Source of the DNA: Bacteroidota bacterium
GTDB lineage: Bacteria > Bacteroidota > Bacteroidia > Bacteroidales > FEN-979
NCBI GenBank assembly: GCA_037134895.1
Contig: JBAXLI010000008.1
Coordinates: 17,294-81,293, forward strand
Length of the DNA: 64,000 nucleotides
Direction of reading: 5' to 3'
Under the pieces are notes generated by a model that saw only the letters and a program-made list of their open reading frames with translations, was not told the DNA's origin and made no database searches. The translations under genes and the position numbers were made by a program. This document shows positions 4,738-57,500 of the stretch, in pieces. The first letter of the stretch is position 1. The number at the start of each line of letters is the position of its first letter.

Positions 4738-5193
4738 ATGGATCGGGCAAGAAAAAGGGCCAGGTACAGCAGGCTTTATGATCAGCTCAGCGACCTTCTG
4801 ACTAAAACGCCCGATCCCCAGGCCAGGATGGCAACCATAGTTGCCGTGCTGCATAATAAAATGGAATATTTTTACTGGACTGGATTTTATCAGCTGGTCA
4901 AAGGGGAACTTACTGTGAAAACTTACCAGGGTCCCCTTGCCTGCCAGGTACTGAAAAGTCATACCGGCGTGTGCTGGGCCGGAATAGATACTAAAACAAC
5001 GGTGATTGTGCCCGATGTCCATAAATTCCCGGGCCATATCGCCTGCGATTCAGCCTCAGCTTCTGAAATTGTTGTTCCCTTGAAAAACCGCTCAGGCAGG
5101 ATCATCGGGGTGCTTGATGTCGACAGCAAATCGTTGAACTCATTTGATGAAGCTGATGCCGAATGGCTTGAAAAAATTGTCGCACTGGTTTGA
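4738..5193 (+). CDS. msrC: GAF-domain free methionine-(R)-sulfoxide reductase-like protein
   Basis: The 151-aa product resembles E. coli YebR/MsrC (..WTGFY.., ..GVCWAG.., ..FPGHIACDSASASEIVVPL.., ..IGVLDVDS..). Start chosen at the first ATG after the tnaA-like stop. Confidence 0.75.
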   Translation: MDRARKRARYSRLYDQLSDLLTKTPDPQARMATIVAVLHNKMEYFYWTGFYQLVKGELTVKTYQGPLACQVLKSHTGVCWAGIDTKTTVIVPDVHKFPGHIACDSASASEIVVPLKNRSGRIIGVLDVDSKSLNSFDEADAEWLEKIVALV

Positions 5194-5352
5194 TTGGGGA
5201 TTGGGGATTAGGGATTGGGGATTGGGGATTGGGGATTGGGGATTGGTTGTTGGTTCGCAGCAATGGCAAGGTGCTACGAAGCCATTCTTATTCGTAATTC
5301 GTAATTCGTAATTCGTAATTCGTCACTCGTCACTCGTCACTCGTCACTCGTA
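5192..5352. repeat. Heptamer array locus L1: class A x7 (+2 degenerate), core stem-loop, class B x9
   Basis: Class A runs 5192..5240 as GATTGGG x7 (one is GATTAGG), followed by GATTGGT and TGTTGGT. The core stem-loop is at 5254..5280. Class B runs 5290..5352 as ATTCGTA x4, ATTCGTC, ACTCGTC x3, ACTCGTA. The first unit overlaps the msrC-like stop TGA (5191..5193). The array ends 10 nt before the mntP ATG. Confidence 0.95.
5254..5280. other. Core stem-loop of the composite element (L1 copy)
   Basis: TTCGCAGCA, a 9-nt loop, then TGCTACGAA. This is a 9-bp stem with one C/A mismatch. It is the same stem sequence as at 18605..18643. Confidence 0.7.
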
Positions 5353-5362
5353 AATCACTAAC

Positions 5363-18000: not shown

Positions 18001-18481
18001 TTTCATTGGAATGATTATTTTCAAGATGCCTTTTGTCATAACCATGACAGGCATCGGAATTGTAGCCCTGGGAGGTATTGTTGTCAGAAACGGGATCCTA
18101 ATCGTCGAGTTTGCCGATGTGTTAAAGGCCGAAGGGAAAACAACCCTCGAAGCCATCGTTGGCGCCGGCAAGACAAGGATTACCCCGGTTGCGCTTACAG
18201 CTACAGCAACCATGCTTGGGCTGGTACCACTCGCGGTGGGGTTCAACATCAATTTTGTTACCCTGTTCACCAAACTGAATCCTCATATATGGGTAGGGGG
18301 GGATAATGTGATGTTCTGGGGGCCTCTCTCATGGACAATTATCTTCGGCCTCAGCTTTGCAACCTTCCTGACCCTGATCTTTGTCCCGGCCCTGCTGCTG
18401 ATTGATGCAAAAGCCAAAGCCGGGTGGAGAAGGAAGCAGGAACTGAAACGGTACAGGAAACTACAGGCGAAGAAGGCTTGA
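15089..18481 (+). CDS. RND efflux transporter permease (AcrB/AcrD/AcrF family)
   Basis: Start trimmed to ATG 15089. 1130 aa with a 12-TM topology and two large periplasmic loops. Typical RND motifs are present (..ALGIIVDDAIVVIEN.., ..GIVVRNGILIVEF..). Confidence 0.9.
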   Translation: MKKPEKIKEFFATSWAIDNRASIYVLTIIITMLGVISYMNIPKEQFPEIVIPTIIVNTAYPGTSPEDMENLVTRPIEKQVKSLQNVKKISSNSIQDFSSIVVEFTTGIPVPEAKQRVRDAVDKAKSSLPNNLPKDPDIAEVDISEIPIMNINLSGDYDLQRLKKYAEEAQDKIETLPEITRVDIVGALDREIQVDVDMYKMQAASVSFRDIQNAIAAENVTVSAGNITNYGMKRTLRVTGQFKSPAEINDIILKSSSGATVYIKDIAEIKDSYKDQESFARFEGKNVITLNVIKKSGANLLNASDKIKDFISDLKKNSFPPDLKVELTGEQSRFTRSTLEELNNTIIIGFLLVTLVLMFFMGLNNAFFVAMSVPLSMFVAYLVMPGLGFTMNMIVMFGFIFALGIIVDDAIVVIENTHRIHRFIPDIKTAAKHAAGEVFLPILSGTLTTLAPFFPLVFWPGIVGKFMHYLPVTLILTLFASLFVAYIINPVFAVTFMKHEYDGNEYKLRKKPFLVSSIILGVLAALFYLAGVFFMGNLLAFALILNLVYRLWIKNAIIAFQSRLWPAVLNFYEKQLRFFLRGRNPYYLFAGVIVLFFFTIYLYGLFKPQVLFFPNNNPATINIFIKMPVGTDQNVTDSVTRIVESKVVATLGKDNPIVESIIANVGFGAGESFFDRSISPEKGKVTVGFVESKDRKGVRTLDYMDQIRKNVQNIPGATISVEKNKMGPPTGKPINIEITSDNITDLISTSRDFLGYLDSLQIPGIDKLRSDFDESKPEIVLEVDRIRANREGITVGQIGMELRTAIYGYEASKYKEDEDEYPIQVRYSQAQRKNINNVMNAKITYRDMNSGQLRQIPISAVTKVDYKDTYGGIKRKNLKRVITLSSDVTSGHTANEVLANIGAALKTYKLPKGVEVNFTGEQEDQAETMKFLINAMIIALGMIFFILITQFGSLSKSLIILSEVIFSIIGVFIGMIIFKMPFVITMTGIGIVALGGIVVRNGILIVEFADVLKAEGKTTLEAIVGAGKTRITPVALTATATMLGLVPLAVGFNINFVTLFTKLNPHIWVGGDNVMFWGPLSWTIIFGLSFATFLTLIFVPALLLIDAKAKAGWRRKQELKRYRKLQAKKA

Positions 18482-18682
18482 TGCGGGATGCAAGATGCAG
18501 GATGCAGGATGCGGGATGCAGGATGTGGGATGCAGGATGCGGGATGCAGGATGCGGGATGCAAGATGCAGGATGTACGGATTACGATGTACGAATTAGTA
18601 TGGGTTCGCAGCACCTTAGCAGCCCTGGTAAGTGTGCTGCGAAGCAACAACAAATCCCTAATCCCTAATCCCCAATCCCCAA
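18480..18682. repeat. Heptamer array locus L2: class C x13, degenerate class B' x4, core stem-loop, class A' x4
   Basis: Class C runs 18480..18570 as GATGCRR x13. Then 18571..18598 reads GATGTAC GGATTAC GATGTAC GAATTAG. The core lies within 18599..18650. Class A' runs 18651..18682 as ATCCCTA x2 then ATCCCCA x2. The first unit overlaps the RND stop TGA (18479..18481), and the last unit ends 1 nt before the TolC stop. Confidence 0.95.
18605..18643. other. Core stem-loop of the composite element (L2 copy)
   Basis: TTCGCAGCAC (18605..18614) pairs perfectly with GTGCTGCGAA (18634..18643). An inner CTTA/TAAG pairing extends the stem. Confidence 0.75.
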
Positions 18683-20071
18683 CTAAAACTGCTCAAGCAG
18701 CTTGTTCAGCCTTGTTTTCTGGCTCAGGACCATAAAAATAGACTGCATGTAGTTATTGTTCGCGGTGAGAAACTGTGAGTACCTCTGGTTGAGGTCAGTA
18801 CTTGAAGAAAGCCCCTGGCGGTACTTCGTCATAGTTTTAGTATAAATCTTCATGGCGATGTCAAATCCTTTCTTCTGGTTGAGGTAGATCGCATAGGCAT
18901 TACTGAAATCTTTCTTCGCAGTTTCAACCTGTAATTCAAGCCCCACCCTCATCTTCTCATCGGTAACCTTGGTTTTTTCAACGTTCAGTCTTGCCTGGTC
19001 AACCGCATATTTTCTGCTGCCGCTGCTCCAGATGGGAACTGTAAGCGAGATCCCCCAGCTTGATGTTTTATACCATGGATAGTGATAGTCGGTAAAATTC
19101 CATTCTTCTCTCTGGGCGGAGGTTGAGATGCCGATATAACCTCCAAGTGACGGCTGATAGGCAGTCTTCGAAAGCTTGTATTGCATGAGGACCAGGTAAT
19201 CGCTCTTTTTAAGTAAAGTGTAATCGATATTCCTGGTATAATCAAAAGCCTGATTCACTAAAACGTCGCGGTTTACCTGCGCGAGAAAATAATCCAGGTT
19301 GTTTGTAAGTATAAGCTCCTGCTCATCTTTCAAACCGATCACGAACTTCAGGTTTGCATAGGCGATATTACGGCTGCTCCTGACATCGGTAAGCTGGGCT
19401 TCCAGGTTGGATCGGTTCAGGTCGGCCTGGTCAACATCTATGTCTTCAATAAGCCCCTGGACCTGGGCTGCTTTTGCCTCTTCAACAAGCCTGCTTACCA
19501 CTACATATGTGGAGTCAAGGATCTTGATCGCCTCATCGGTCACAAGTAACTGGTAATATGCTGTGGCAACGATATCGCGGATGTCAACCTTGTCTTTCAG
19601 ATTCTTTTGCTTGGCGGTTTCAAGGTAAGCCTTGGCAGTCTGCAATCCAACAAGGTACTGTCCGCTGTAGATCAGCTGGGTCAGCTGCAGGCCTGCGTTG
19701 ATATTATATTTCATGCCAAACTGCATGTCGAGATAATCAGGAGCCTGTGCATACTTCACCGGGTCCATCGCTTTCAGGAAGTTAGGTAACACCGAAGTGG
19801 GAAGGCTCAGGTAATCAACATATGATGCACTTCCGTTGATCTGTGGAAGCCCGATTGCGGTGTTCTGCTTGACCATTTTGCCAGCGATTGTAACATCAGT
19901 TGCCGAATTCTTGAGGTCGTAATTATTCTCAAAAGCAAATTCCTGGGCCTGCTGCAGAGAGAATGAAACCACTGTTTTTTGCTTCACCCGGCTCTGGGCA
20001 GCCAGGTATGTAGTATGACAAGTCAGCAACACCAATACGATGCACCAAAGTTTATTGAAAGTGAAGTACAT
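18683..20071 (-). CDS. TolC-family outer-membrane efflux protein
   Basis: 462 aa with a signal peptide and the duplicated alpha-helical/beta-barrel repeat typical of OEP/TolC (..YLETAKQ.., ..LNRSNLEAQL..). It is convergent with the RND pump. Confidence 0.8.
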   Translation of the reverse strand: MYFTFNKLWCIVLVLLTCHTTYLAAQSRVKQKTVVSFSLQQAQEFAFENNYDLKNSATDVTIAGKMVKQNTAIGLPQINGSASYVDYLSLPTSVLPNFLKAMDPVKYAQAPDYLDMQFGMKYNINAGLQLTQLIYSGQYLVGLQTAKAYLETAKQKNLKDKVDIRDIVATAYYQLLVTDEAIKILDSTYVVVSRLVEEAKAAQVQGLIEDIDVDQADLNRSNLEAQLTDVRSSRNIAYANLKFVIGLKDEQELILTNNLDYFLAQVNRDVLVNQAFDYTRNIDYTLLKKSDYLVLMQYKLSKTAYQPSLGGYIGISTSAQREEWNFTDYHYPWYKTSSWGISLTVPIWSSGSRKYAVDQARLNVEKTKVTDEKMRVGLELQVETAKKDFSNAYAIYLNQKKGFDIAMKIYTKTMTKYRQGLSSSTDLNQRYSQFLTANNNYMQSIFMVLSQKTRLNKLLEQF

Positions 20072-22709: not shown

Positions 22710-25094
22710 TTATGCGACTTCGATCCCTGTTTCGCCGGGGATGAACCTTCCAATCACTGAAGAAAAGTTAAAACCTTCTGCCGCAAGGGCTGCAACTGCC
22801 TCTTCAGCCTGCTCAGCGGGCAATGCAACCAGAAGTCCGCCTGAAGTCTGTGCATCGGCAAGAAGTATCTTCACCATTTCTGGCACTGAAGGTCTGCAAT
22901 GAAGAATGCTCCCTGCAAACTCGAGGTTGCTGATGGTCCCGCCGGGGATCATCCCTGCAACTGCATACTCCCATGCCGAACTCAGCAAAGGCAATTTTTC
23001 CCATTCCAGCAACGCCCTGAGCTCGCCTGCCGAAAGCATTTCTTTAAGATGTCCGAGCAAACCAAAGCCCGTCACATCGGTGCACGCATGTATATCATAG
23101 TTCATCAGAAGTTCGGCCGGCCGTTTGTTAAGAGCCGACATCACTTCAATCGCCTCCTTTGCCGATTCGGGGCTTGCAAACCCCCTTTTTACAGCAGTGC
23201 TTACAATCCCCGTCCCAATAGGCTTTGTAAGAAGCAATGCATCCCCGGCCCTGGGTGTGGAATTTCTCCAGATCCGGTCGGGATGCACTTCCCCGCTTAC
23301 AACGAAGCCGAATTTCGGTTCTTCGTCTTCAATACTATGACCGCCTAAGATCGGAATCCCTGCTTCAGCCGCTTTATCCGATGCTCCCCTGAGGATCTCC
23401 TGGAGCACTTCAAACGGCAGCCGTTTTTCGGGGAAGGCAACAATACTCAGTGCAAAAAGGGGCCGCCCTCCCATAGCCCAGATATCGCTTAGCGCATTCG
23501 CTGCAGCAATAGCCCCATAATAATAAGGATCGTCAACCACCGGGGGAATGAAATCGACTGTTTGTACCAGGGCGGTGTCCTCGCTTAAACGGTAAACGGC
23601 AGCATCATCAGAAGTCTCGGTCCCCACCAGTATATTTTTCCCGGCCGGGCGGGGAATGGTCTTCAATATCTTTTCAAGAGCCTGTGGCCTGATCTTGCAT
23701 GCACAGCCCAGTGAATGCGTGTATTCGGTTAATTTAATCGGTTTTAAACTGACTGCGGATGAGGGAGGGTTTTCATCACCTCCTGCCTGTTCCCCGCCTG
23801 GCGTGAGGCCTGGCTTTTCAGTCTTTTCAAACAGATGCAGGAGTTTCCCCGGGAGGGTCCTTCCGCTGATAATCTCAACCGCAAAGTCGATTTCTTCTTC
23901 AGTGCTCATCCTCCCTGTCGAAAACCTTATCGTACCCAGCGCATAATCACGGGGGACCTGCATTGCCAGTAAAACCTGTGAGATCGTTTCCAGCCCGGCA
24001 TGGCAGGCTGCCCCGGCCGAAGCTGCAAGTCCTCTCCAGTCATTCAGAAGGGCTGAAGCATCCTTTCCCCTGAACCCGAGGCTGAGCGTATTCGGAAGCC
24101 GTTTTTCGGGATGGCCGTTCAGCCTTGCATCGGGGAATGCCTGGAGAATACCATCGTGGAGGCGATCCCTCAGTGTTTGCAGGGGATTGGGGGTTGGGGA
24201 TTGGGGGTTGGGGATTGGGGGTTGGGGATTGGGGATCCGGTCTTCATTAGTAACTCGTAACTCTTCATTCGTAATTCGTAATTCGTAATTCGTAACTCGT
24301 AACTCGTCATTCGTCATTCGTAACTCGTAACTCCTAATTATCTCCGCCGATTTCCCCATGCCTGCAATGCCCATGATATTTTCAGTGCCTGCCCTGAGGT
24401 TCTGCTCATGCCCCGCCCCGTGAAGTATTTTACTGAGCTTTATCCCCCTGCGGCAATAAAGGGCTCCGACCCCTTTGGGTGCATAGAATTTGTGAGCCGC
24501 AACCGACAACAGGTCGGCGTTCATGGCAACCACATCTACGGGGATCTTCCCAACCGACTGTGCAGCGTCACAATGGAATACGATCCCGTGCTCTCTTGAG
24601 ATCCTGCCTATGTCTTCAACCGGCTGTATCGTTCCCACCTCGTTATTCGCATGCATGATGCTGGCAAGAATGGTATCGGGCCTGATTGCTTTTCTGAAAT
24701 CATCGGGATTTATCATCCCCTTTTCATCGACCGGAAGATAGGTGATCTCAAAACCCATGCCCGACAAAAACCGGCAAACCTCTGTTACTGCCGGGTGTTC
24801 AACCATGGATGTGATGATATGCCTGCCTTTCCCGGCATAGGCAAATGCATAGCCCTTAAGAGCAAGATTGTTCGATTCGGTTCCTCCTCCTGTAAGAATG
24901 ATCTCGTCGGGCCTTGCATTCAGTGCAAGTGCCAGCTCCCGGCGGCCAGCTTCGATTGCTTTCCGCGCTAGAATTCCGAATTCATGGGAACTTGAAGGAT
25001 TGCCGAAGAGTTCTCCCAAAAACGGTCTCATCTCCTCCGCAACCCGCGGGTCCAGGGGGGTGGTGGCATTATAATCAAGATATACTGCTTTCAT
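22710..25094 (-). CDS. selD: Fusion protein: NifS/IscS-like cysteine desulfurase (N-terminal) + selenophosphate synthetase SelD (C-terminal), interrupted in frame by a heptamer-array segment
   Basis: 794 aa. The N-terminal domain (MKAVYLDYNATTP...HKFYAPKGVG...SAGAACH) is class-V aminotransferase/NifS-like. The C-terminal domain (..LGCACKIRPQALEKIL.., ..GGHSIED.., ..DVTGFGLLGHL.., ..AQTSGGLL..) is SelD, with Cys rather than Sec at the active site. Residues [51 protein letters not shown] are encoded by repeat locus L3. Confidence 0.85.
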   Translation of the reverse strand: MKAVYLDYNATTPLDPRVAEEMRPFLGELFGNPSSSHEFGILARKAIEAGRRELALALNARPDEIILTGGGTESNNLALKGYAFAYAGKGRHIITSMVEHPAVTEVCRFLSGMGFEITYLPVDEKGMINPDDFRKAIRPDTILASIMHANNEVGTIQPVEDIGRISREHGIVFHCDAAQSVGKIPVDVVAMNADLLSVAAHKFYAPKGVGALYCRRGIKLSKILHGAGHEQNLRAGTENIMGIAGMGKSAEIIRSYELRMTNDELRVTNYELRITNEELRVTNEDRIPNPQPPIPNPQSPTPNPLQTLRDRLHDGILQAFPDARLNGHPEKRLPNTLSLGFRGKDASALLNDWRGLAASAGAACHAGLETISQVLLAMQVPRDYALGTIRFSTGRMSTEEEIDFAVEIISGRTLPGKLLHLFEKTEKPGLTPGGEQAGGDENPPSSAVSLKPIKLTEYTHSLGCACKIRPQALEKILKTIPRPAGKNILVGTETSDDAAVYRLSEDTALVQTVDFIPPVVDDPYYYGAIAAANALSDIWAMGGRPLFALSIVAFPEKRLPFEVLQEILRGASDKAAEAGIPILGGHSIEDEEPKFGFVVSGEVHPDRIWRNSTPRAGDALLLTKPIGTGIVSTAVKRGFASPESAKEAIEVMSALNKRPAELLMNYDIHACTDVTGFGLLGHLKEMLSAGELRALLEWEKLPLLSSAWEYAVAGMIPGGTISNLEFAGSILHCRPSVPEMVKILLADAQTSGGLLVALPAEQAEEAVAALAAEGFNFSSVIGRFIPGETGIEVA
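24182..24338. repeat. Heptamer array locus L3 (inside nifS-selD): class A x8, a 3-nt joint, class B x14
   Basis: Positions 24182..24237 alternate GGGGATT/GGGGGTT x8. Positions 24241..24338 hold 14 in-phase units (TCGTAAC/TCGTAAT/TCGTCAT/TCTTCAT variants). The region is read on the minus strand as part of the CDS. Confidence 0.95.
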
Positions 25095-30457: not shown

Positions 30458-30518
30458 TTACGAATTACGAGTTACGAGTTTCGAATTATGGTTATTACAC
30501 TCGTCACTTGTCACTCAA
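30458..30518. repeat. Heptamer array locus L4: class B' x4-5, spacer, class B x3 (imperfect hairpin)
   Basis: TTACGAA TTACGAG TTACGAG TTTCGAA (30458..30485), then CACTCGT CACTTGT CACTCAA (30498..30518). It starts 4 nt after the purF stop. The last unit contains the HIT stop (30515..30517). Confidence 0.85.

Positions 30519-41792: not shown

Positions 41793-41797
<5 letters not shown>
41357..41797 (+). CDS. Hypothetical lipoprotein (Cys-rich C-terminal half)
   Basis: 146 aa with a lipobox (FIVISCSK) and a C-terminal CxC/CxxC pattern (ITCNCPKCKSKY). Its stop codon TAG lies inside the first unit of repeat locus L5. Confidence 0.5.
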
Positions 41798-43518
<1,721 letters not shown>

Positions 43519-43610
43519 CGCACTCCCATTTCCAATTCCCGGTAATATGTATTACTTTTGATGCAGATCATGACAAAACTTATAAAACAGAAATCCCCAC
43601 CTCCACTATC

Positions 43611-44366
43611 ATGCCATTGATATTAGGACGAAACAGGCCAAACGGAGCAATCGGTGTCTGGCAAATTACCGAAGATGAAACTGCGCTCAGCACCCTTGCC
43701 TCTGCCGTTGAAGAGGACGAGAAAGTGGTCAGGACCTTCAAAAATGAATCGAGGCGGAAACAATGGTATGCCTGCCGGGCTTTGCTCAGGCAGATGCTTT
43801 CTTTTGACGAGGTGAAAGTCGATTATGACATGCATGGCAGACCATCTCTCAGGGGATTTAAGGGAGATATTTCATTTTCCCATACACAGGATTATGCAGC
43901 AGTAATATTGAATAAGGTGGGACGTGCCGGGATTGACATAGAAAAAATCAATCCCAGGATACACCGGGTTGCAGATAGGTTCCTTCAGGATGAAGAACTG
44001 GAGCACGTATCACGTATCGCGAGAAACGAGGAACGAGGAACGTGTCACCAATCACCAACAAACAGCAACCAACAACCAACAACCAATCCCCAACCCCCAA
44101 TCCCCAACCCCCAACCCCCAATCCCCAACCCCCAATCCCCAACCACTGAACTCCTATATTTATACTGGTGTGCAAAGGAAGCGTTATATAAATTTTATGG
44201 TAATCCCTCGGTTGACCTGAAAAATGATATCTACATCATTGCATTTGATTATTTTTGCAATCCAAATGCCGCCTTCACTTCACGGGTAAAATCATCGGAA
44301 GGCATCAGAGAACATGAACTCTTATCGGTCAGGATAGGGGATCATATGCTTGTTTATACCTTATAA
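43611..44366 (+). CDS. Sfp-type 4'-phosphopantetheinyl transferase carrying an in-frame 42-codon heptamer-array insertion
   Basis: Start trimmed to ATG 43611; the upstream part of the track ORF is only open frame through repeat locus L6. PPTase motifs are present (..[10 protein letters not shown].., ..GIDIEKI.., ..[13 protein letters not shown]). Residues [42 protein letters not shown] are encoded by repeat locus L7. Confidence 0.75.
44018..44143. repeat. Heptamer array locus L7 (inside the PPTase gene): 18 in-phase units grading from class-B'-like through CACCAAC/AACCAAC to class A'
   Basis: Counting 7-mers from 44018 gives CGCGAGA, AACGAGG x2, AACGTGT, CACCAAT, CACCAAC, AAACAGC, AACCAAC x2, AACCAAT, then CCCCAAC/CCCCAAT x8. 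That is 126 nt, or exactly 42 codons. Confidence 0.9.
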
Positions 44367-47300: not shown

Positions 47301-48048
47301 CGAAGATGCTCAAACACTCTTGTCCGACATTCTGAAAAAGAAGATGCTTATCGCACGCGGGGCTATCGGGCTGTTTGCATGCAATTCGGTTGGCGATGAT
47401 GTGGAAGTGTATGCGGATGAACAAAAGCAGAAAACCCTGAACGTTATCCGCTTCCTGCGCAATCAGCAGAAAAAGGAAGACAATGCCCCCAACCTTTGCC
47501 TGGCCGATTTCATCGCTCCTAAAGATTCGGGTTTGACTGATTATATCGGATGTTTCGCAGTGACCGCCGGACTGGGAGTTGAAGAATGGGCGGCAGTGTT
47601 CGAAAAGGACCTTGACGATTACAATGCCATCATGGTTAAGATCCTGGCCGACAGGCTTGCCGAAGCGTTTGCCGAAGCCATGCACCGGCGCGTCAGAAAG
47701 GAATTCTGGGGATATTCCAAAGATGAGAACCTCGACGTGGCTTCAGTAATCCGCGAGGAGTACCAGGGTATAAGGCCTGCCCCGGGCTATCCGGCCTGTC
47801 CTGAACATTCAGAAAAACGAACTTTGTTTGAACTGCTATCAGCCGAAACGAAAGTAGATATAAAACTTACCGAGAATTTTGCCATGTACCCTGCAGCATC
47901 GGTTTCGGGGTACTATTTCTCCCATCCGCTATCACAGTATTTTAACCTGGGAAAAATCAGCCGCGACCAGGTTGCCGATTATGCAAGAAGAAAAGGGCTG
48001 AGTATAGAAAAGGCAGAGAAACTGCTTAATACCAATTTAAACTATTGA
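44374..48048 (+). CDS. metH: Cobalamin-dependent methionine synthase
   Basis: Start trimmed to ATG 44374. 1224 aa. The Hcy-binding, pterin-binding, B12-binding ([10 protein letters not shown]) and AdoMet-activation domains are all recognisable. Confidence 0.9.
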
Positions 48049-48051
48049 AGA

Positions 48052-49008
48052 ATGCGAGTTATTGATATCATTAAACAAGCTGATAAAACATTATTTTCAT
48101 TTGAGCTTCTCCCTCCGCTGAGAGGGAATAACATCACCAGCATCTACAAGGTGATCGATCCCCTGATGGAGTACAAGCCTTCGTTCATTAACGTGACGTA
48201 TCACCAGGAAGAGGTTGTTTACAAGAAGCATCCAAGCGGACTTCTTGAAAAAAAGACCATCCGCAAGAGGCCTGGAACCGTGGCCATATCCGCTGCCATT
48301 AAAAATAAATATACCGCGGTTGAAGTGGTTCCTCACCTGATCTGCGGTGGTTTTTCAAAGGAAGAAACCGAGTATGCCCTGATCGACTTTCATTACCTGG
48401 GAATCGACAATATTCTTGCCCTCAGGGGTGATGCCCCCAGGAACCTGAGGACTTTCCAGCCCGAAGAGAACGGTCATTCCCATGCCGATGATCTGGTCTC
48501 CCAGATCAGGGAGATGAACCAGGGAAAATTCCTTGACGATGAAATGCAGCATACTTTCAAGACAAATTTCTGTATTGGAGTTGCCGGATATCCAGAGAAA
48601 CATATTGAAGCCCCGAACATGTCGACCGACCTGTCGCAACTGAAGAAGAAAATCGACGCAGGTGCCGAATTCATCATCACCCAGATGTTTTTCGATAATA
48701 AGAAGTATTTCAGTTTCGTGGATGCCTGCCGAAAGGAAGGGATCAGCGTCCCAATAATTCCCGGATTGAAGCCCATTTGTACCATGAGGGAACTTAATGC
48801 CCTTCCGCAGATATTTTACATTGACATACCCGAGGAACTTTCGAAAGAGGTTCAGAAATGCAATTCGAACGATGATGTGTTCAAGGTTGGAATCGAATGG
48901 GGTATCAGGCAGTCACAGGAACTTCTCGATAACGGGGTTCCGGTTTTACACTATTTTACCGTTGGCATTTCGGAGAATATCCGGCAGATTGCAAAGGCAA
49001 TTTTTTAA
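48052..49008 (+). CDS. metF: 5,10-methylenetetrahydrofolate reductase
   Basis: 318 aa (FSFELLPP.., ..ALRGD.., ..GVAGYPEKH.., ..FIITQMFFD..). It lies directly downstream of metH. Confidence 0.85.
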   Translation: MRVIDIIKQADKTLFSFELLPPLRGNNITSIYKVIDPLMEYKPSFINVTYHQEEVVYKKHPSGLLEKKTIRKRPGTVAISAAIKNKYTAVEVVPHLICGGFSKEETEYALIDFHYLGIDNILALRGDAPRNLRTFQPEENGHSHADDLVSQIREMNQGKFLDDEMQHTFKTNFCIGVAGYPEKHIEAPNMSTDLSQLKKKIDAGAEFIITQMFFDNKKYFSFVDACRKEGISVPIIPGLKPICTMRELNALPQIFYIDIPEELSKEVQKCNSNDDVFKVGIEWGIRQSQELLDNGVPVLHYFTVGISENIRQIAKAIF

Positions 49009-49018
49009 GCATTCTTTT

Positions 49019-49762
49019 ATGAATCACTTGCAAACACTTACAAAAGATGCCAGGGCCGGCAGAAAAAAATTCGCCGTCCTGATCGACCCGGATAAATCGA
49101 CACCTGCTTCGATCAGGAGCCTGGCGGGGATTGCGGTAAAGGCTGGCGTCGACTATTTCTTCTTCGGTGGAAGCCTGCTTACAAGCAATGAAGGTGGTGA
49201 ACAGATAAGGATGTTGAAGCAAGAATCCGATATTCCTGTTATTTTATTCCCGGGCAGCAGTTTGCAGGTGTATCCCGATGCCGATGGGATCCTGCTTCTT
49301 TCGCTGATATCGGGAAGGAATCCCGAAATGCTTATCGGAAAACATGTTGAATCTGCAGCCCTGCTCAAAGCCAGCAAACTTGAGATAATCCCTACCGCAT
49401 ACATGCTTGTCGACGGTGGAAAACCTACTTCTGTTTCATATATCAGCAATACTCTTCCAATACCTGCAGACAAGCCTGATATTGCTGCTTGCACTGCTCT
49501 CGCGGGAGAGATGCTTGGCCTGAAACTTATCTATATGGATGCAGGTTCGGGAGCTTTGAACCCGGTATCTTCAGAGATGATCTCGAAAGTGAAGCAGGAA
49601 ACCTCATTACCACTCATTATAGGCGGAGGCATCTCTGATATCCGCAAGGCGAAAAACGCATTGGAAGCCGGAGCTGACATCATTGTTACCGGAAACGCGA
49701 TTGAGAAGAACCCGGGACTGATGTCCGATATCGGAAGTCTGATGACGGGATACAGGACATAG
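49019..49762 (+). CDS. Geranylgeranylglyceryl/heptaprenylglyceryl phosphate synthase family protein (PcrB/GGGPS-like)
   Basis: Start trimmed to ATG 49019 (MNHLQTLTKD..). Motifs ..AVLIDPDK.., ..IYMDAGSGA.., ..LIIGGGI.., ..ADIIVTGNA.. match the TIM-barrel GGGPS family. The stop TAG overlaps the first unit of repeat locus L8. Confidence 0.7.
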   Translation: MNHLQTLTKDARAGRKKFAVLIDPDKSTPASIRSLAGIAVKAGVDYFFFGGSLLTSNEGGEQIRMLKQESDIPVILFPGSSLQVYPDADGILLLSLISGRNPEMLIGKHVESAALLKASKLEIIPTAYMLVDGGKPTSVSYISNTLPIPADKPDIAACTALAGEMLGLKLIYMDAGSGALNPVSSEMISKVKQETSLPLIIGGGISDIRKAKNALEAGADIIVTGNAIEKNPGLMSDIGSLMTGYRT

Positions 49763-49906
49763 GATGCGGGATGCAGGATGCATGATGATTGATTCTACTT
49801 TATCTTGCATCTTGCATCTTGCATCTTGCATCTTGTACCTTGCATCTTGCATCTTGCATCTTGTACCTTGCATCTTGCATCCCGCATCTTACATCCCTTA
49901 CCTTTA
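49761..49906. repeat. Heptamer array locus L8: class C x3-4, 13-nt spacer, class C' x15 (asymmetric hairpin)
   Basis: AGGATGC GGGATGC AGGATGC ATGATGA (49761..49788), then ATCTTGC/ATCTTGT/ACCTTGC variants in unbroken phase at 49802..49906. It overlaps the GGGPS-like stop TAG (49760..49762) and contains the elbB stop (49904..49906). Confidence 0.95.
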
Positions 49907-56593: not shown

Positions 56594-56676
56594 TTACGAG
56601 TGACGAATGACGAGTGACGATTTCTGAATTCGTAACTCGTAACTCGTAATTCGTAATTCGTAATTCGTAACTTACT
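56594..56676. repeat. Heptamer array locus L10: class B' x4, 6-nt spacer, class B x6-7 (hairpin)
   Basis: TTACGAG TGACGAA TGACGAG TGACGAT (56594..56621), then ATTCGTA ACTCGTA ACTCGTA ATTCGTA x3 ACTTACT (56628..56676). The last degenerate unit contains the BI-1 stop (56672..56674). Confidence 0.95.
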
Positions 56677-57425: not shown

Positions 57426-57500
57426 TTTAGGGTTTGGGGGTTAGGGTTTAGGGATAAGCAATATCACCCTAATCCCTAATCCCCAATCCCTAATCCCTGT
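57426..57500. repeat. Heptamer array locus L11: class A x4, spacer, class A' x5 (hairpin)
   Basis: TTTAGGG TTTGGGG GTTAGGG TTTAGGG (57426..57453), then ACCCTAA TCCCTAA TCCCCAA TCCCTAA TCCCTGT (57466..57500). It lies between the BI-1 start and the folE stop (57504..57506). Confidence 0.95.

What the first reader, a model, noticed from the sequence alone, without database searches (positions are those of the whole stretch)
44018..44143. Exactly 18 heptamer units (126 nt, 42 codons) inserted in frame in a 4'-phosphopantetheinyl transferase
Counting 7-mers from 44018 gives 18 consecutive in-phase units, which grade from AACGAGG through CACCAAC/AACCAAC to CCCCAAC/CCCCAAT. Eighteen units is a multiple of three units (21 nt), so the frame is preserved. 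The array encodes [42 protein letters not shown], just upstream of the conserved ..[10 protein letters not shown] motif. That places it in the variable linker where Sfp-type enzymes have a short segment. The orientation relative to the coding strand is the same as in nifS-selD: B'-like units lie 5' and the C-rich A' units lie 3'. Again only stop-free variants are used, and a second forward frame is also open across it (track ORF 43969..44220). Without the insert the protein would be ~209 aa, a normal PPTase size. A second independent case makes a random artefact unlikely. It suggests the element can colonise coding loops.
Basis: partly seen in the sequence, partly recalled or inferred. Interest (0 to 1): 0.75.

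Follow-up and report, generated by a model that had tools for sequence, protein, structure and literature searches.

The report
In-frame heptamer repeat in enzyme loop
A 7-base satellite that fills this bacterium's intergenic DNA also sits inside a dispensable surface loop of a housekeeping enzyme, where it persists because its total length keeps the reading frame; it is real and fast-evolving, but it is a known kind of repeat.

Summary
Positions 44018-44143 are 18 in-phase heptamers inside an intact Sfp-type phosphopantetheinyl transferase (CDS 43611-44366). "Exactly 18" depends on where the edges are drawn.

The array lies in a disordered loop between two helices, upstream of the WxxKE catalytic motif. 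More distant syntenic orthologues have 39 residues from GxD to WxxKE; this protein has 79.

It is not a one-off insertion. Every member of a clade of orthologues (MetH 81-88% identical) has this loop extended by 17-61 residues. The extensions are heptamers, 24-nt repeats, a 30-nt module or non-repetitive sequence.

A second assembly of the same species is 99.85% identical in the flanks and has unchanged intergenic arrays. It carries 12 units with different unit sequences. All within-species length differences seen are multiples of 3 nt.

Period-7 arrays cover 918 nt of the window; lags 4-6 and 8-12 give none. They are strongly excluded from coding sequence.

The open second frame, the stop-free units and the orientation follow from heptamer arithmetic plus selection.

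Best reading: a slippage-prone heptanucleotide satellite, like cyanobacterial STRR repeats, tolerated in a permissive loop. It is a new member of a known kind, of moderate interest.

The parts
43611..44366 (+). Sfp-type 4'-phosphopantetheinyl transferase CDS (251 aa), the host gene. It lies in conserved synteny between ahcY (-) and metH (+).
   Evidence: Pfam ACPS E=5.2e-12, split into two stretches. 100% match to NCBI MAG protein WCO02_04010. The MPLI start is conserved. AF2 pLDDT 87.9. Foldseek matches Sfp-type PPTases. Synteny.
43929..43943 (+). GIDIE (G107-E111), the metal-binding GxD motif upstream of the loop.
   Evidence: G107, D109 and I110 are invariant in alignment A1 and E111 is nearly invariant. 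Used as the anchor for loop-length measurement.
44004..44017 (+). Two in-phase CACGTAT units at the degenerate 5' edge of the array. They overlap the ancestral codons E-H-V-S-R.
   Evidence: TRF row 44004-44018; unit listing; alignment with L001.
44018..44045 (+). Four 'B-like' units (CGCGAGA, AACGAGG x2, AACGTGT) encoding ARNEERGTC. They are predicted to prolong the preceding helix. L001 lacks 21 nt of this block.
   Evidence: helix 127-141.
44046..44087 (+). Six transitional units (CACCAAT, CACCAAC, AAACAGC, AACCAAC x2, AACCAAT). No TRF or lag-7 array of this unit type was found elsewhere in the window. In L001 this type makes up 11 of the 12 units.
44088..44143 (+). Eight C-rich A' units (CCCCAAC/CCCCAAT) encoding (PQPPIPN)n, the purest part of the array.
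   Evidence: An independent contig, L166, confirms the junction into this block. L001 has no such units.
44088..44140 (-). Template-strand G-quadruplex motif (8 G-tracts, GGGGATT/GGGGGTT). By manual comparison of the two sequences printed, it matches the G-rich strand of the NifS array (24182-24234) at 50 of 53 positions.
   Evidence: Regex scan. All 10 canonical G4 motifs in the window lie in heptamer arrays.
44142..44192 (+). [17 protein letters not shown], the conserved helix with the catalytic WxxKE...K motif. It is read in frame only if the array length is 3n.
   Evidence: E180, W186, K189, E190 and K194 are invariant within the clade. Helix 177-196.
43969..44220 (+). Alternative 83-aa open frame across the array. 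This is a by-product of stop-free heptamers, not a gene.
   Evidence: A shift into this frame would end translation at 44220. A shift into the third frame ends at the TGA at 44146-44148.
43332..43514 (+). Upstream intergenic heptamer arrays (TTACGAG/TTACGAA x6, GGATGCA x3, ATCCTGC x14). They are stop-free in the PPTase frame, so ORF callers extend the gene to 43383 or beyond.
   Evidence: Identical in L001.
24182..24339 (-). Second in-frame composite array (B units, then AATCCCC/AACCCCC), inside the Aminotran_5 domain of NifS-SelD (ORF 22710..25094).
   Evidence: The roughly 40-aa insert is absent from the 6 aligned orthologues P0122-P0240; the closest relative, P0121 (76% identical), carries an 8-residue, apparently non-array extension at the same site.

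Best explanation
The feature is a coding microsatellite. It is one locus of a genome-wide family of heptanucleotide tandem repeats, of the kind known as STRR or long simple sequence repeats. It resides in a structurally permissive, disordered loop between two helices of the C-terminal half of an Sfp-type PPTase.

Shown:
- The array is real and in frame.
- It lies in a loop that is about 40 residues shorter in syntenic orthologues outside the clade.
- The same loop carries tandem repeats of various unit sizes, or their non-repetitive remains, in every member of the clade.
- It differs by 6 units and in unit sequence between two assemblies whose flanks are 99.85% identical.
- Every within-species length difference seen at this loop is a multiple of 3 nt.
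- Heptamer arrays are otherwise almost excluded from coding sequence.

Inferred:
- Arrays grow, shrink and homogenise by replication slippage and unequal or ectopic recombination between repeat units.
- Purifying selection on the PPTase removes every allele whose net length is not 3n, or that brings a stop codon into frame.
- What remains is stop-free unit variants and a 21-nt super-period.
- The encoded P/Q/N/T-rich peptide is a neutral, disordered passenger with no sequence-specific function.
For: Period 7 is unique in the window: 19 segments and 918 nt, against 0 at lags 4-6 and 8-12 and 0 in 100 shuffles.

Only 2 of 11 array loci lie in genes although 93.6% of the window is coding (P=8e-10).

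AF2 models the insert as coil 142-176, with pLDDT below 50 at 152-167, between helices 127-141 and 177-196. The rest of the fold is confident.

The distance from GxD to WxxKE is 39 aa in the five syntenic or related outgroup loci and 56-100 aa in all 17 clade loci measured.

The insert DNA has period 7 in the window, L001, L086 and L004/L093. It has period 24 in L002/L092/L094 and is aperiodic in the others.

Window vs L001 over 6.7 kb: 10 mismatches outside the array, AhcY and MetH proteins 100% identical, and intergenic arrays unchanged. The PPTase array differs by 42 nt plus 8 mismatches.

Other within-species differences are +30 nt (L004 vs L093), +24 nt (P0018 vs P0276) and +12 nt (P0261). 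L002/L092 and L094, which fall in separate 90%-identity clusters, differ by 120 nt.

The 21-nt super-period exceeds the 7-nt period in both alleles: 94% vs 87% in the window and 98% vs 82% in L001.

The species of L086 has the same CCCCAAC units at the same site. Complete proteins of 228 aa were listed from at least 100 contigs (P0245, P0246, P0249, P0250, P0253).

The array mRNA is unstructured (z=+0.26) and there are no inverted repeats.

The A' unit variants used in genes lack TAA, whereas the commonest intergenic variant, AATCCCT, contains it.
Against: - Slippage is inferred, not observed. No read-level data were available.
- The strain comparison rests on two complete alleles and one partial allele.
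- The intergenic arrays next door, including a 14-unit, 92%-pure array, are identical between the two strains. A uniform slippage rate does not explain why only the coding array changed, so recombination or selection on the loop may be involved.
- The A' block matches the NifS array at 50 of 53 positions (manual comparison of the sequences) and uses the same two variants. This hints at copying between loci rather than purely local evolution.
- In the L086 species the array length is constant, so hypervariability is not general.
- Neutrality of the peptide is assumed from its lack of conservation.
Confidence: 0.62

Rival explanations
1. Discrete colonisation. A pre-formed composite B-to-A' heptamer element was copied into the PPTase loop, and separately into NifS, by transposition, template switching or ectopic gene conversion from another array.
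For: - The A' block uses the same two unit variants and the same length as the NifS array: 53 nt, matching at 50 of 53 positions by manual comparison of the sequences.
- The same order, ACGAG-type units followed by C-rich units, is seen in NifS and, on the minus strand, at 5192-5353.
- L001, otherwise 99.85% identical, has no CCCCAAY units at all, which is compatible with recent gain by conversion.
- Unit families are dispersed over many loci, so some copying mechanism must exist.
Against: - There are no terminal inverted repeats or other element ends. No target-site duplication was apparent on reading the flanks, although this was not formally tested.
- The units grade step by step from the flanking codons into the array.
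- A CCCCAAC array occupies the same site in a species whose PPTase is only 59% identical (L086), so it has been resident for a long time.
- The same loop holds 24-nt, 30-nt and 12-nt repeats in other species. This points to a property of the site, not of an element.
- The "B-like" units match the B family at only 5 of 7 positions.
Confidence: 0.2
2. Contingency locus. Because 7 is not a multiple of 3, gain or loss of one unit switches the PPTase off. Translation would stop at the TGA at 44146-44148 in one shifted frame, or at 44220 in the other. A further slip switches it on again, giving phase-variable carrier-protein activation.
For: - There is a long pure tract of a non-3n unit in mid-ORF, and both shifted frames terminate before the WxxKE catalytic motif.
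- The array varies between strains.
- Heptanucleotide repeats do mediate phase variation in Haemophilus and Neisseria (papers listed: PMC2651432, PMC7157529).
- One related species has alleles split in this loop by a 1-nt deletion (P0265/P0255 and P0267).
Against: - Every complete allele seen is in frame. The differences are 42, 30, 24, 12 and 120 nt, and at least 100 contigs of one species all give 228 aa.
- The gene is a conserved, syntenic housekeeping-type enzyme in free-living freshwater and peat organisms.
- The array sits mid-gene rather than near the 5' end.
- The same satellite fills intergenic DNA genome-wide, so nothing targets it to this gene.
- Consensus assemblies would hide minority OFF alleles, so this test is weak.
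Confidence: 0.08
3. Functional insert. Either the disordered P/Q-rich loop tunes partner recognition or stability, or the template-strand G-quadruplex (8 G-tracts) modulates transcription or replication through the gene.
For: - An extended loop is retained in all clade members.
- The G-rich strand is the template strand in both coding cases, and every canonical G4 motif in the window is an array.
Against: - Loop sequence, charge and length are not conserved. The loop is acidic EKRDGDRE repeats, G/C/M-rich or P/Q-rich in different species.
- L001 lacks all G-tract units yet keeps the gene.
- Outgroup enzymes do without the loop.
Confidence: 0.07
4. Assembly artefact. The array, or its unit number, is a product of short-read misassembly.
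For: - Arrays do break assemblies. L098 ends exactly at the array start.
- Several database proteins are fragments ending or starting in the array.
- L166 ends inside the array in adapter sequence.
Against: - The array is 126 nt with many distinguishing variants, which is shorter than typical reads and k-mers.
- L166, an independent assembly from another sample, reproduces the first ~12 units (about 82 nt), including the junction into the C-rich block.
- L001 is a coherent in-frame alternative allele.
- The ORF is intact with conserved motifs on both sides.
Confidence: 0.03

Closest known systems
Heptanucleotide long simple sequence repeats / cyanobacterial STRR sequences (Mrazek et al. 2007 as summarised in PMC4679880; STRR consensus units from my own knowledge)
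   Same: Tandem 7-nt units. Period 7 is strongly over-represented relative to other periods. There are many dispersed loci with a few unit families, they are mostly non-coding, and copy number varies between strains.
   Different: The host is an uncultured Bacteroidota (Bacteroidales-like) lineage. Most unit sequences differ from STRR1-3. Here an 18-unit composite array lies in frame inside a conserved enzyme.
G-quadruplex-forming GGGNATC / GGGGA(C/T)T heptamer repeats of Xanthomonas and Nostoc (Rehm et al. 2015, PMC4692102)
   Same: The A family here (GGGGATT, GGGGGTT, GGGATTA) includes the Nostoc unit GGGGATT. The arrays are enriched in non-coding DNA, rare between divergent genes, and found between co-directional genes; unlike Rehm's repeats, they are also common between convergent genes here. 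When inside an ORF, the G-rich strand is not the coding strand.
   Different: Those repeats prefer 4 units; here there are 8 G-tracts. Coding occurrences were excluded from their analysis rather than characterised. G4 formation was not tested here.
TAACTGA heptamer repeats of Beggiatoaceae, Cyanobacteria and five Bacteroidetes (MacGregor 2015, PMC4679880)
   Same: Heptamer arrays in Bacteroidetes intergenic regions, mixed with other heptamers. That paper makes the same argument that stop codons in one orientation dictate where and in which orientation arrays can enter ORFs. It notes occasional intragenic arrays.
   Different: The units differ. Those repeats are mostly 2-6 copies just upstream of start codons, and the intragenic cases are mostly in hypothetical proteins. 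No orthologue or strain comparison of a coding array was made.
STRR arrays inside the RNase P RNA gene of heterocyst-forming cyanobacteria (Vioque 1997, NAR 25:3471; title seen in reference lists; details from my own knowledge)
   Same: A heptamer satellite residing inside a functional housekeeping gene, at a variable, structurally tolerant position.
   Different: That gene encodes an RNA, so there is no reading-frame constraint. The paper itself could not be read here.
Phase-variable contingency loci with intragenic heptanucleotide repeats (Haemophilus, Neisseria; PMC2651432, PMC7157529 listed)
   Same: A repeat unit that is not 3n inside an ORF. A slip of one unit would frameshift the gene.
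   Different: No out-of-frame alleles were seen. The host is not a surface or restriction-modification gene of a host-adapted pathogen. The array is one of many, mostly intergenic.

Membership tests
Sfp-type (group II) 4'-phosphopantetheinyl transferase (host gene) | ACPS-superfamily domain (Pfam PF01648) | tested here: met
   E=5.2e-12, 46.2 bits against a cut-off of 25. The match is split into two stretches by the insert.
Sfp-type (group II) 4'-phosphopantetheinyl transferase (host gene) | Monomer of about 220-240 aa made of two ACPS-like halves; fold similar to Sfp, PptT and AASDHPPT | tested here: met
   AF2 pLDDT 87.9, pTM 0.86. Foldseek top hits are 2cg5, 7bdw, 7bcz, 4mrt and 4qjk with probability 1.00. 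AcpS trimers match only half of the model.
Sfp-type (group II) 4'-phosphopantetheinyl transferase (host gene) | Conserved GxD and WxxKE(A/S)xxK catalytic motifs | tested here: met
   G107, D109 and E111 (the GIDIE motif) and W186, K189, E190 and K194 are invariant or nearly invariant.
Sfp-type (group II) 4'-phosphopantetheinyl transferase (host gene) | Transfers phosphopantetheine from CoA to carrier proteins | not testable with these tools
   Needs an enzyme assay.
Heptanucleotide LSSR / STRR-type satellite | Head-to-tail tandem units of 7 nt in multiple copies | tested here: met
   18 (up to 20) in-phase units.
Heptanucleotide LSSR / STRR-type satellite | Genome-wide excess of period 7 over other periods, at many dispersed loci | tested here: met
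   19 segments and 918 nt at lag 7, against 0 at lags 4-6 and 8-12. 0 in 100 shuffles. 148 other loci (Bacteroidota relatives outside the clade, apart from one clade duplicate, L003; 956 kb) have 567 nt at lag 7.
Heptanucleotide LSSR / STRR-type satellite | Predominantly non-coding location | tested here: met
   9 of 11 array loci are intergenic in a window that is 93.6% coding (P=8e-10).
Heptanucleotide LSSR / STRR-type satellite | Copy-number polymorphism between strains | tested here: met
   18 vs 12 units between the window and L001, with flanks 99.85% identical. The adjacent intergenic arrays did not differ.
Heptanucleotide LSSR / STRR-type satellite | Cyanobacterial STRR consensus units (CCCCAGT, TTGGTCA, CAACAGT; from memory) | tested here: not met
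   The units here are CCCCAAC/T, ACGAGxx, GATGCAG and others. Only the GGGGATT variant coincides with the Nostoc GGGGA(C/T)T unit (PMC4692102). It therefore works like STRR but is not the same sequence family.
G4-forming heptamer repeats (Rehm et al. 2015) | At least 4 consecutive G-tracts of 3 or more G with short loops | tested here: met
   Minus strand 44088-44140 has 8 G-tracts.
G4-forming heptamer repeats (Rehm et al. 2015) | Quadruplex actually forms (CD spectroscopy, K+ dependence) | not testable with these tools
   Needs biophysics. ViennaRNA folding does not model G4 in DNA.
Phase-variable contingency locus | Intragenic SSR whose unit is not a multiple of 3 | tested here: met
   7-nt unit in mid-ORF. 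Shifted frames stop at 44146-44148 or at 44220.
Phase-variable contingency locus | ON and OFF alleles differing by non-3n repeat lengths among strains or reads | tested here: not met
   All allele differences are 3n: 42, 30, 24, 12 and 120 nt. At least 100 contigs of the L086 species give 228 aa. The only split alleles, P0265/P0255 and P0267, arise from a 1-nt deletion outside any heptamer array. Minority alleles in reads could not be examined.
Mobile element (MITE / IS-like insertion) | Terminal inverted repeats | tested here: not met
   No inverted repeats in 43900-44260. The RNA fold shows no pairing of the array ends.
Mobile element (MITE / IS-like insertion) | Target-site duplication and defined element ends | tested here: inconclusive
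   No target-site duplication was apparent on reading the flanks, but this was not formally tested. The 5' edge grades into the flanking codons rather than ending sharply.

The most novel reading that the evidence does not exclude
In this Bacteroidota clade, heptamer arrays are not passive slippage products. They would be spread and homogenised by an active, length-specific copying process, and they would act as a standing source of new disordered loops and linkers in conserved proteins. Observations that leave this open: the PPTase loop, the NifS loop, the 7-aa-periodic peptides in the NifS-SelD linker of orthologues, and the near-identical 53-nt A' blocks in two unrelated genes. In addition, the PPTase array could double as a low-frequency ON/OFF switch through single-unit slips.
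Probability: 0.1. Interest if true: 0.7.

Novelty: new member of a known kind. Interest (0 to 1): 0.4.

Why it matters
This is a clean natural example of how a non-triplet satellite can live inside an essential-type enzyme. The reading frame acts as a filter: it passes only 3-unit net changes and stop-free unit variants, and the result is a fast-evolving disordered loop.

The orthologue series shows one loop holding heptamers, 24-nt and 30-nt repeats and their decayed remains. This is a snapshot of loop birth and turnover by tandem duplication.

There are practical consequences:
- These arrays break metagenome assemblies.
- They create spurious or over-extended ORFs.
- They make 90%-identity protein clusters split alleles of a single species.

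The finding also extends heptamer-rich genomes to an uncultured freshwater and peat Bacteroidota clade.

Tried and rejected
- **Genome-contig scan with alignment A1.** No clade member was returned and no species-level taxonomy was obtained.
- **Rfam on the whole window.** No family matched, so no known RNA element explains the arrays.
- **PDB sequence search with the PPTase.** It returned only a spurious parvalbumin hit. The fold search was needed instead.
- **The look-up of encoding contigs for P0004 and P0024.** No DNA is held for these.
- **Literature search with "STRR".** It was swamped by streptomycin-resistance "StrR". Vioque 1997 is not held.
- **RNA-structure idea.** The array mRNA is unpaired (z=+0.26), so this was rejected.
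- **Transposon-like ends.** No inverted repeats were found, so this was rejected.
- **21-nt super-period as specific proof of frame selection.** It is only suggestive. The coding NifS array has a 14-nt super-period, and some intergenic arrays also show 14/21/28-nt rows.
- **Residual period 7 in the non-repetitive inserts of other orthologues.** None was detectable. Whether those inserts descend from heptamers cannot be decided.
Full report
**1. The observation**

Reading 44018-44143 in 7-mers gives 18 in-phase units: CGCGAGA, AACGAGG, AACGAGG, AACGTGT, CACCAAT, CACCAAC, AAACAGC, AACCAAC, AACCAAC, AACCAAT, then eight CCCCAAC/CCCCAAT.

Tandem Repeats Finder reports the same stretch as adjoining sub-arrays. 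The purest is 44083-44144, with period 7, 8.9 copies and score 96. It also scores at period 21 with 94% matches.

The array lies in frame in the ORF ending at 44366 and encodes [59 protein letters not shown] follows immediately. The second open frame 43969..44220 exists.

The signal is not chance. The window has 19 lag-7 segments (918 nt) and none at lags 4-6 or 8-12. 100 local shuffles gave none.

"Exactly 18" is a matter of where the edges are drawn. Two more in-phase CACGTAT units precede the array at 44004-44017, and the first counted unit is weak.

**2. The host gene**

The CDS is 43611-44366 (251 aa). The longer ORF from 43383 is an artefact of stop-free heptamer arrays upstream. All orthologues start at MPLI.

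- Pfam ACPS matches at E=5.2e-12, in two stretches split by the insert.
- An AlphaFold2 model built on 39 sequences has mean pLDDT 87.9.
- Its best structural matches are human AASDHPPT, PptAb, PcpS, Sfp and PptT.

It is therefore an Sfp-type PPTase. The protein is 100% identical to an NCBI MAG protein, "Bacteroidota bacterium", locus tag WCO02_04010. Close relatives are labelled Bacteroidales by some submitters.

**3. Where the array sits**

In the model the insert is coil 142-176, with pLDDT below 50 at 152-167. It lies between helix 127-141 and helix 177-196, and the second helix carries the catalytic WxxKE motif.

The distance from GIDIE to WxxKE is 39 residues in outgroup loci L099, L101, L102, L104 and L105 (PPTase 34-37% identical). 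It is 79 residues here. L101 and L104 also carry both ahcY and metH in the locus. Relatives without the insert are 206-214 aa.

**4. The site is a clade-wide hot spot, not a one-off insertion**

All orthologues in a clade with conserved ahcY(-)/PPTase(+)/metH(+) synteny have this loop extended to 56-100 residues. In that clade MetH is 81-88% and AhcY 85-93% identical to the window.

At the DNA level the extension varies by lineage:

| Lineage | Loop content |
|---|---|
| Window species | Heptamers (18 or 12 units) |
| L086 (PPTase 59% identical) | The same CCCCAAC heptamer family |
| L004/L093 | Another heptamer family (CGGGATG/GATGCGG with an occasional 9-mer) |
| L002/L092/L094 | 24-nt repeats encoding EKRDGDRE... 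|
| L005/L088 | A 12-nt duplication |
| Others | Non-repetitive sequence sharing a ..C(H/D)P(H/Q)TELLY tail |

Length differences at this loop are all multiples of 3 nt:

- +30 nt (L004 vs L093; P0022 vs P0281)
- +24 nt (P0018 vs P0276)
- +12 nt (P0261)
- 120 nt (L002 vs L094, which fall in separate 90%-identity clusters)

In the L086 species, complete proteins from at least 100 contigs are all 228 aa. So a shorter, less pure array is stable in length.

**5. Strain comparison**

L001 (ENA ERZ4201038) aligns to the window over 6.7 kb at 99.73% identity.

- Ten mismatches lie outside the array.
- The AhcY and MetH proteins are 100% identical.
- The intergenic arrays at 41793-41876 and 43332-43514 are unchanged.
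- The PPTase array has 12 units instead of 18.
- It lacks 21 nt of the 5' ACGAG-type units.
- It has no CCCCAAY units at all.
- It consists of [AC]ACCAA[CT] units with a 21-nt super-period at 98% matches.

The net difference is 42 nt. A third, independent contig, L166 (ERZ27300137), reproduces the window allele through the junction into the C-rich block. It then runs into Nextera adapter sequence. This largely excludes an assembly artefact.

**6. Genome context**

Nine of the eleven array loci in the window are intergenic and often fill the gap between genes almost completely. Four lie between convergent genes, four between co-directional genes and one between divergent genes. Many are inverted pairs that could form hairpins.

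The window is 93.6% coding, so finding only 2 of 11 loci in genes has P=8e-10.

The second coding case is a roughly 40-residue insert (…[49 protein letters not shown]…) inside the Aminotran_5 domain of NifS-SelD. It is absent from the 6 aligned orthologues P0122-P0240; the closest relative, P0121 (76% identical), has an 8-residue, apparently non-array extension at the same site.

148 other loci (relatives outside the clade, apart from one clade duplicate, L003; 956 kb) carry only 567 nt of period-7 arrays. Other clade members have arrays with different units.

**7. What follows from arithmetic and selection**

- A heptamer array presents the same 21-nt cycle to all three frames. A stop-free unit is therefore open in every forward frame, which explains the second ORF.
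- The commonest intergenic A variant, AATCCCT, contains TAA. The coding arrays use AATCCCC/AACCCCC.
- L086 tolerates one CCCTAAT unit because its TAA falls out of frame.
- The reverse orientation of the B units (AATTCGT/AACTCGT) has TAA every 21 nt, which fixes the orientation in NifS.
- For the PPTase array one reverse frame is open. The shared orientation, in two cases, is therefore weak evidence.
- The same stop-codon logic was set out for TAACTGA repeats (PMC4679880).

**8. Mechanism**

The best-supported reading is a slippage- and recombination-prone heptanucleotide satellite resident in a permissive loop, filtered by purifying selection for a 3n length and the absence of stops. It encodes a neutral, disordered peptide.

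What is shown: the anatomy, the loop position, the clade-wide variability, the strain difference and the exclusion from coding sequence. What is inferred: slippage, selection and neutrality.

The array mRNA has no structure (z=+0.26), there are no inverted repeats, and no Rfam family matches.

Two observations remain unexplained:

- Only the coding array changed between the two strains, while the purer intergenic arrays did not.
- The template-strand G-rich block (44088-44140) matches the NifS array (24182-24234) at 50 of 53 positions, by manual comparison of the sequences printed. This leaves room for ectopic copying.

**9. Comparison with known systems**

Heptanucleotide repeats are the commonest long simple sequence repeats in bacteria (Mrazek 2007, as summarised in PMC4679880). 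Related known cases:

- Cyanobacterial STRR sequences.
- G4-forming GGGGA(C/T)T repeats in Nostoc. [quoted passage not shown]
- TAACTGA arrays in five Bacteroidetes (PMC4679880).
- STRR arrays inside the RNase P RNA gene (Vioque 1997, title only). This is the closest precedent for a heptamer satellite inside a functional gene.

Phase-variable heptanucleotide tracts are the main functional rival. No out-of-frame allele was found, although minority alleles in reads could not be examined.

**10. Verdict**

The feature is real and its description is correct. The "colonising element" interpretation is only partly right. This is a new member of a known kind, and a well-documented in-frame example in an enzyme loop. 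Interest is moderate.

Noticed in passing
L166:2305-2341 (public contig ena:ERZ27300137:k141_629958): The contig ends inside the PPTase array and continues into Nextera adapter sequence (CTGTCTCTTATACACATCTGACGCTGCCGACGA). The C-terminus "LSLIHI" of database protein P0003 is therefore translated adapter. P0252 (…CLLYTSDAADE) shows the same contamination in another frame.
   Followed up: yes
window 43332-43610; also L001:2724-2904 and L086:4837-4909: The upstream intergenic heptamer arrays are stop-free in the PPTase frame. Gene callers therefore extend the PPTase upstream, giving products of 277, 289 and 327 aa. The conserved MPLI start at 43611 is the real one. Arrays elsewhere create spurious ORFs, for example 18481..18735.
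   Followed up: partly
window 41793-41876, 57426-57498, 30458-30516, 49740-49895, 56596-56672, 43383-43514: Many intergenic arrays come as inverted pairs, with a unit family followed by its reverse complement. An example is GGGGTTG/GGGATTA followed by AATCCCT. These could form long hairpins. Of the nine intergenic array loci, 4 lie between convergent genes, 4 between co-directional genes and only 1 between divergent genes. This suggests a terminator-like or 3'-end role.
   Followed up: partly
window 5252-5262, 18603-18613 (+) and 18635-18645 (-): A non-heptamer core, GGTTCGCAGCA, which at 18603/18635 forms a stem-loop with its complement, sits between heptamer arrays at two separate loci. There are 5 matches with up to 1 mismatch, against 0.9 expected. 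This may be the unique centre of a composite repeat element.
   Followed up: partly
window, both strands (list): All 10 canonical G-quadruplex motifs in the 64 kb fall in heptamer arrays. The two that lie in genes (44088-44140 minus strand; 24182-24234 plus strand) are both 53 nt, match at 50 of 53 positions by manual comparison, and are both on the template strand.
   Followed up: partly
window 22710-25094 (-); orthologues P0122, P0123, P0132: NifS-SelD is a fusion protein of 722-735 aa in relatives and 794 aa here, because of the array. Orthologues carry 7-aa-periodic peptides in the NifS-SelD linker: P0123 has RHSAFGIRHSAF, and P0122 and P0132 have (F/L)RISN(N/D)E(F/I)RL. P0122 also has YEIRN at the NifS loop. 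Heptamer-derived coding segments therefore seem recurrent in this lineage.
   Followed up: partly
proteins P0265 + P0255 (same length of longest contig, 3,294 nt, suggesting one JGI contig) and P0267; species of L005/L088: In some contigs the PPTase is split exactly in this loop. The N-terminal ORF ends …HTNR and the C-terminal ORF starts MNNWCGQL…. This is consistent with a 1-nt deletion that creates an overlapping ATGA stop/start. It could be a pseudogene, a sequencing error or a functional two-piece enzyme. The DNA could not be fetched.
   Followed up: no
L098:5400-5416 (end of a 151-kb contig); proteins P0241-P0244: Long contigs of the L086 species end or begin exactly at the PPTase array. 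NCBI MAGs annotate N- and C-terminal "partial" PPTases on different contigs. The arrays are recurrent assembly break points.
   Followed up: yes
L002:3404-3577 vs L094:5397-5483; L004 vs L093:2595-2762: At the same loop, other species show a 24-nt repeat (7.2 copies vs about 2 copies, a 120-nt difference) and a 30-nt module built from three heptamers plus a 9-mer. In these cases the repeating module itself is 3n in length.
   Followed up: yes
window 48048-48800: My length-based gene map mis-called this stretch. It reads as the start of a methylenetetrahydrofolate-reductase-like ORF directly after metH (MRVIDIIKQADKTLFSFELLPP…). If so, ahcY, PPTase, metH and metF would form a methyl-cycle neighbourhood around the PPTase.
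   Followed up: no
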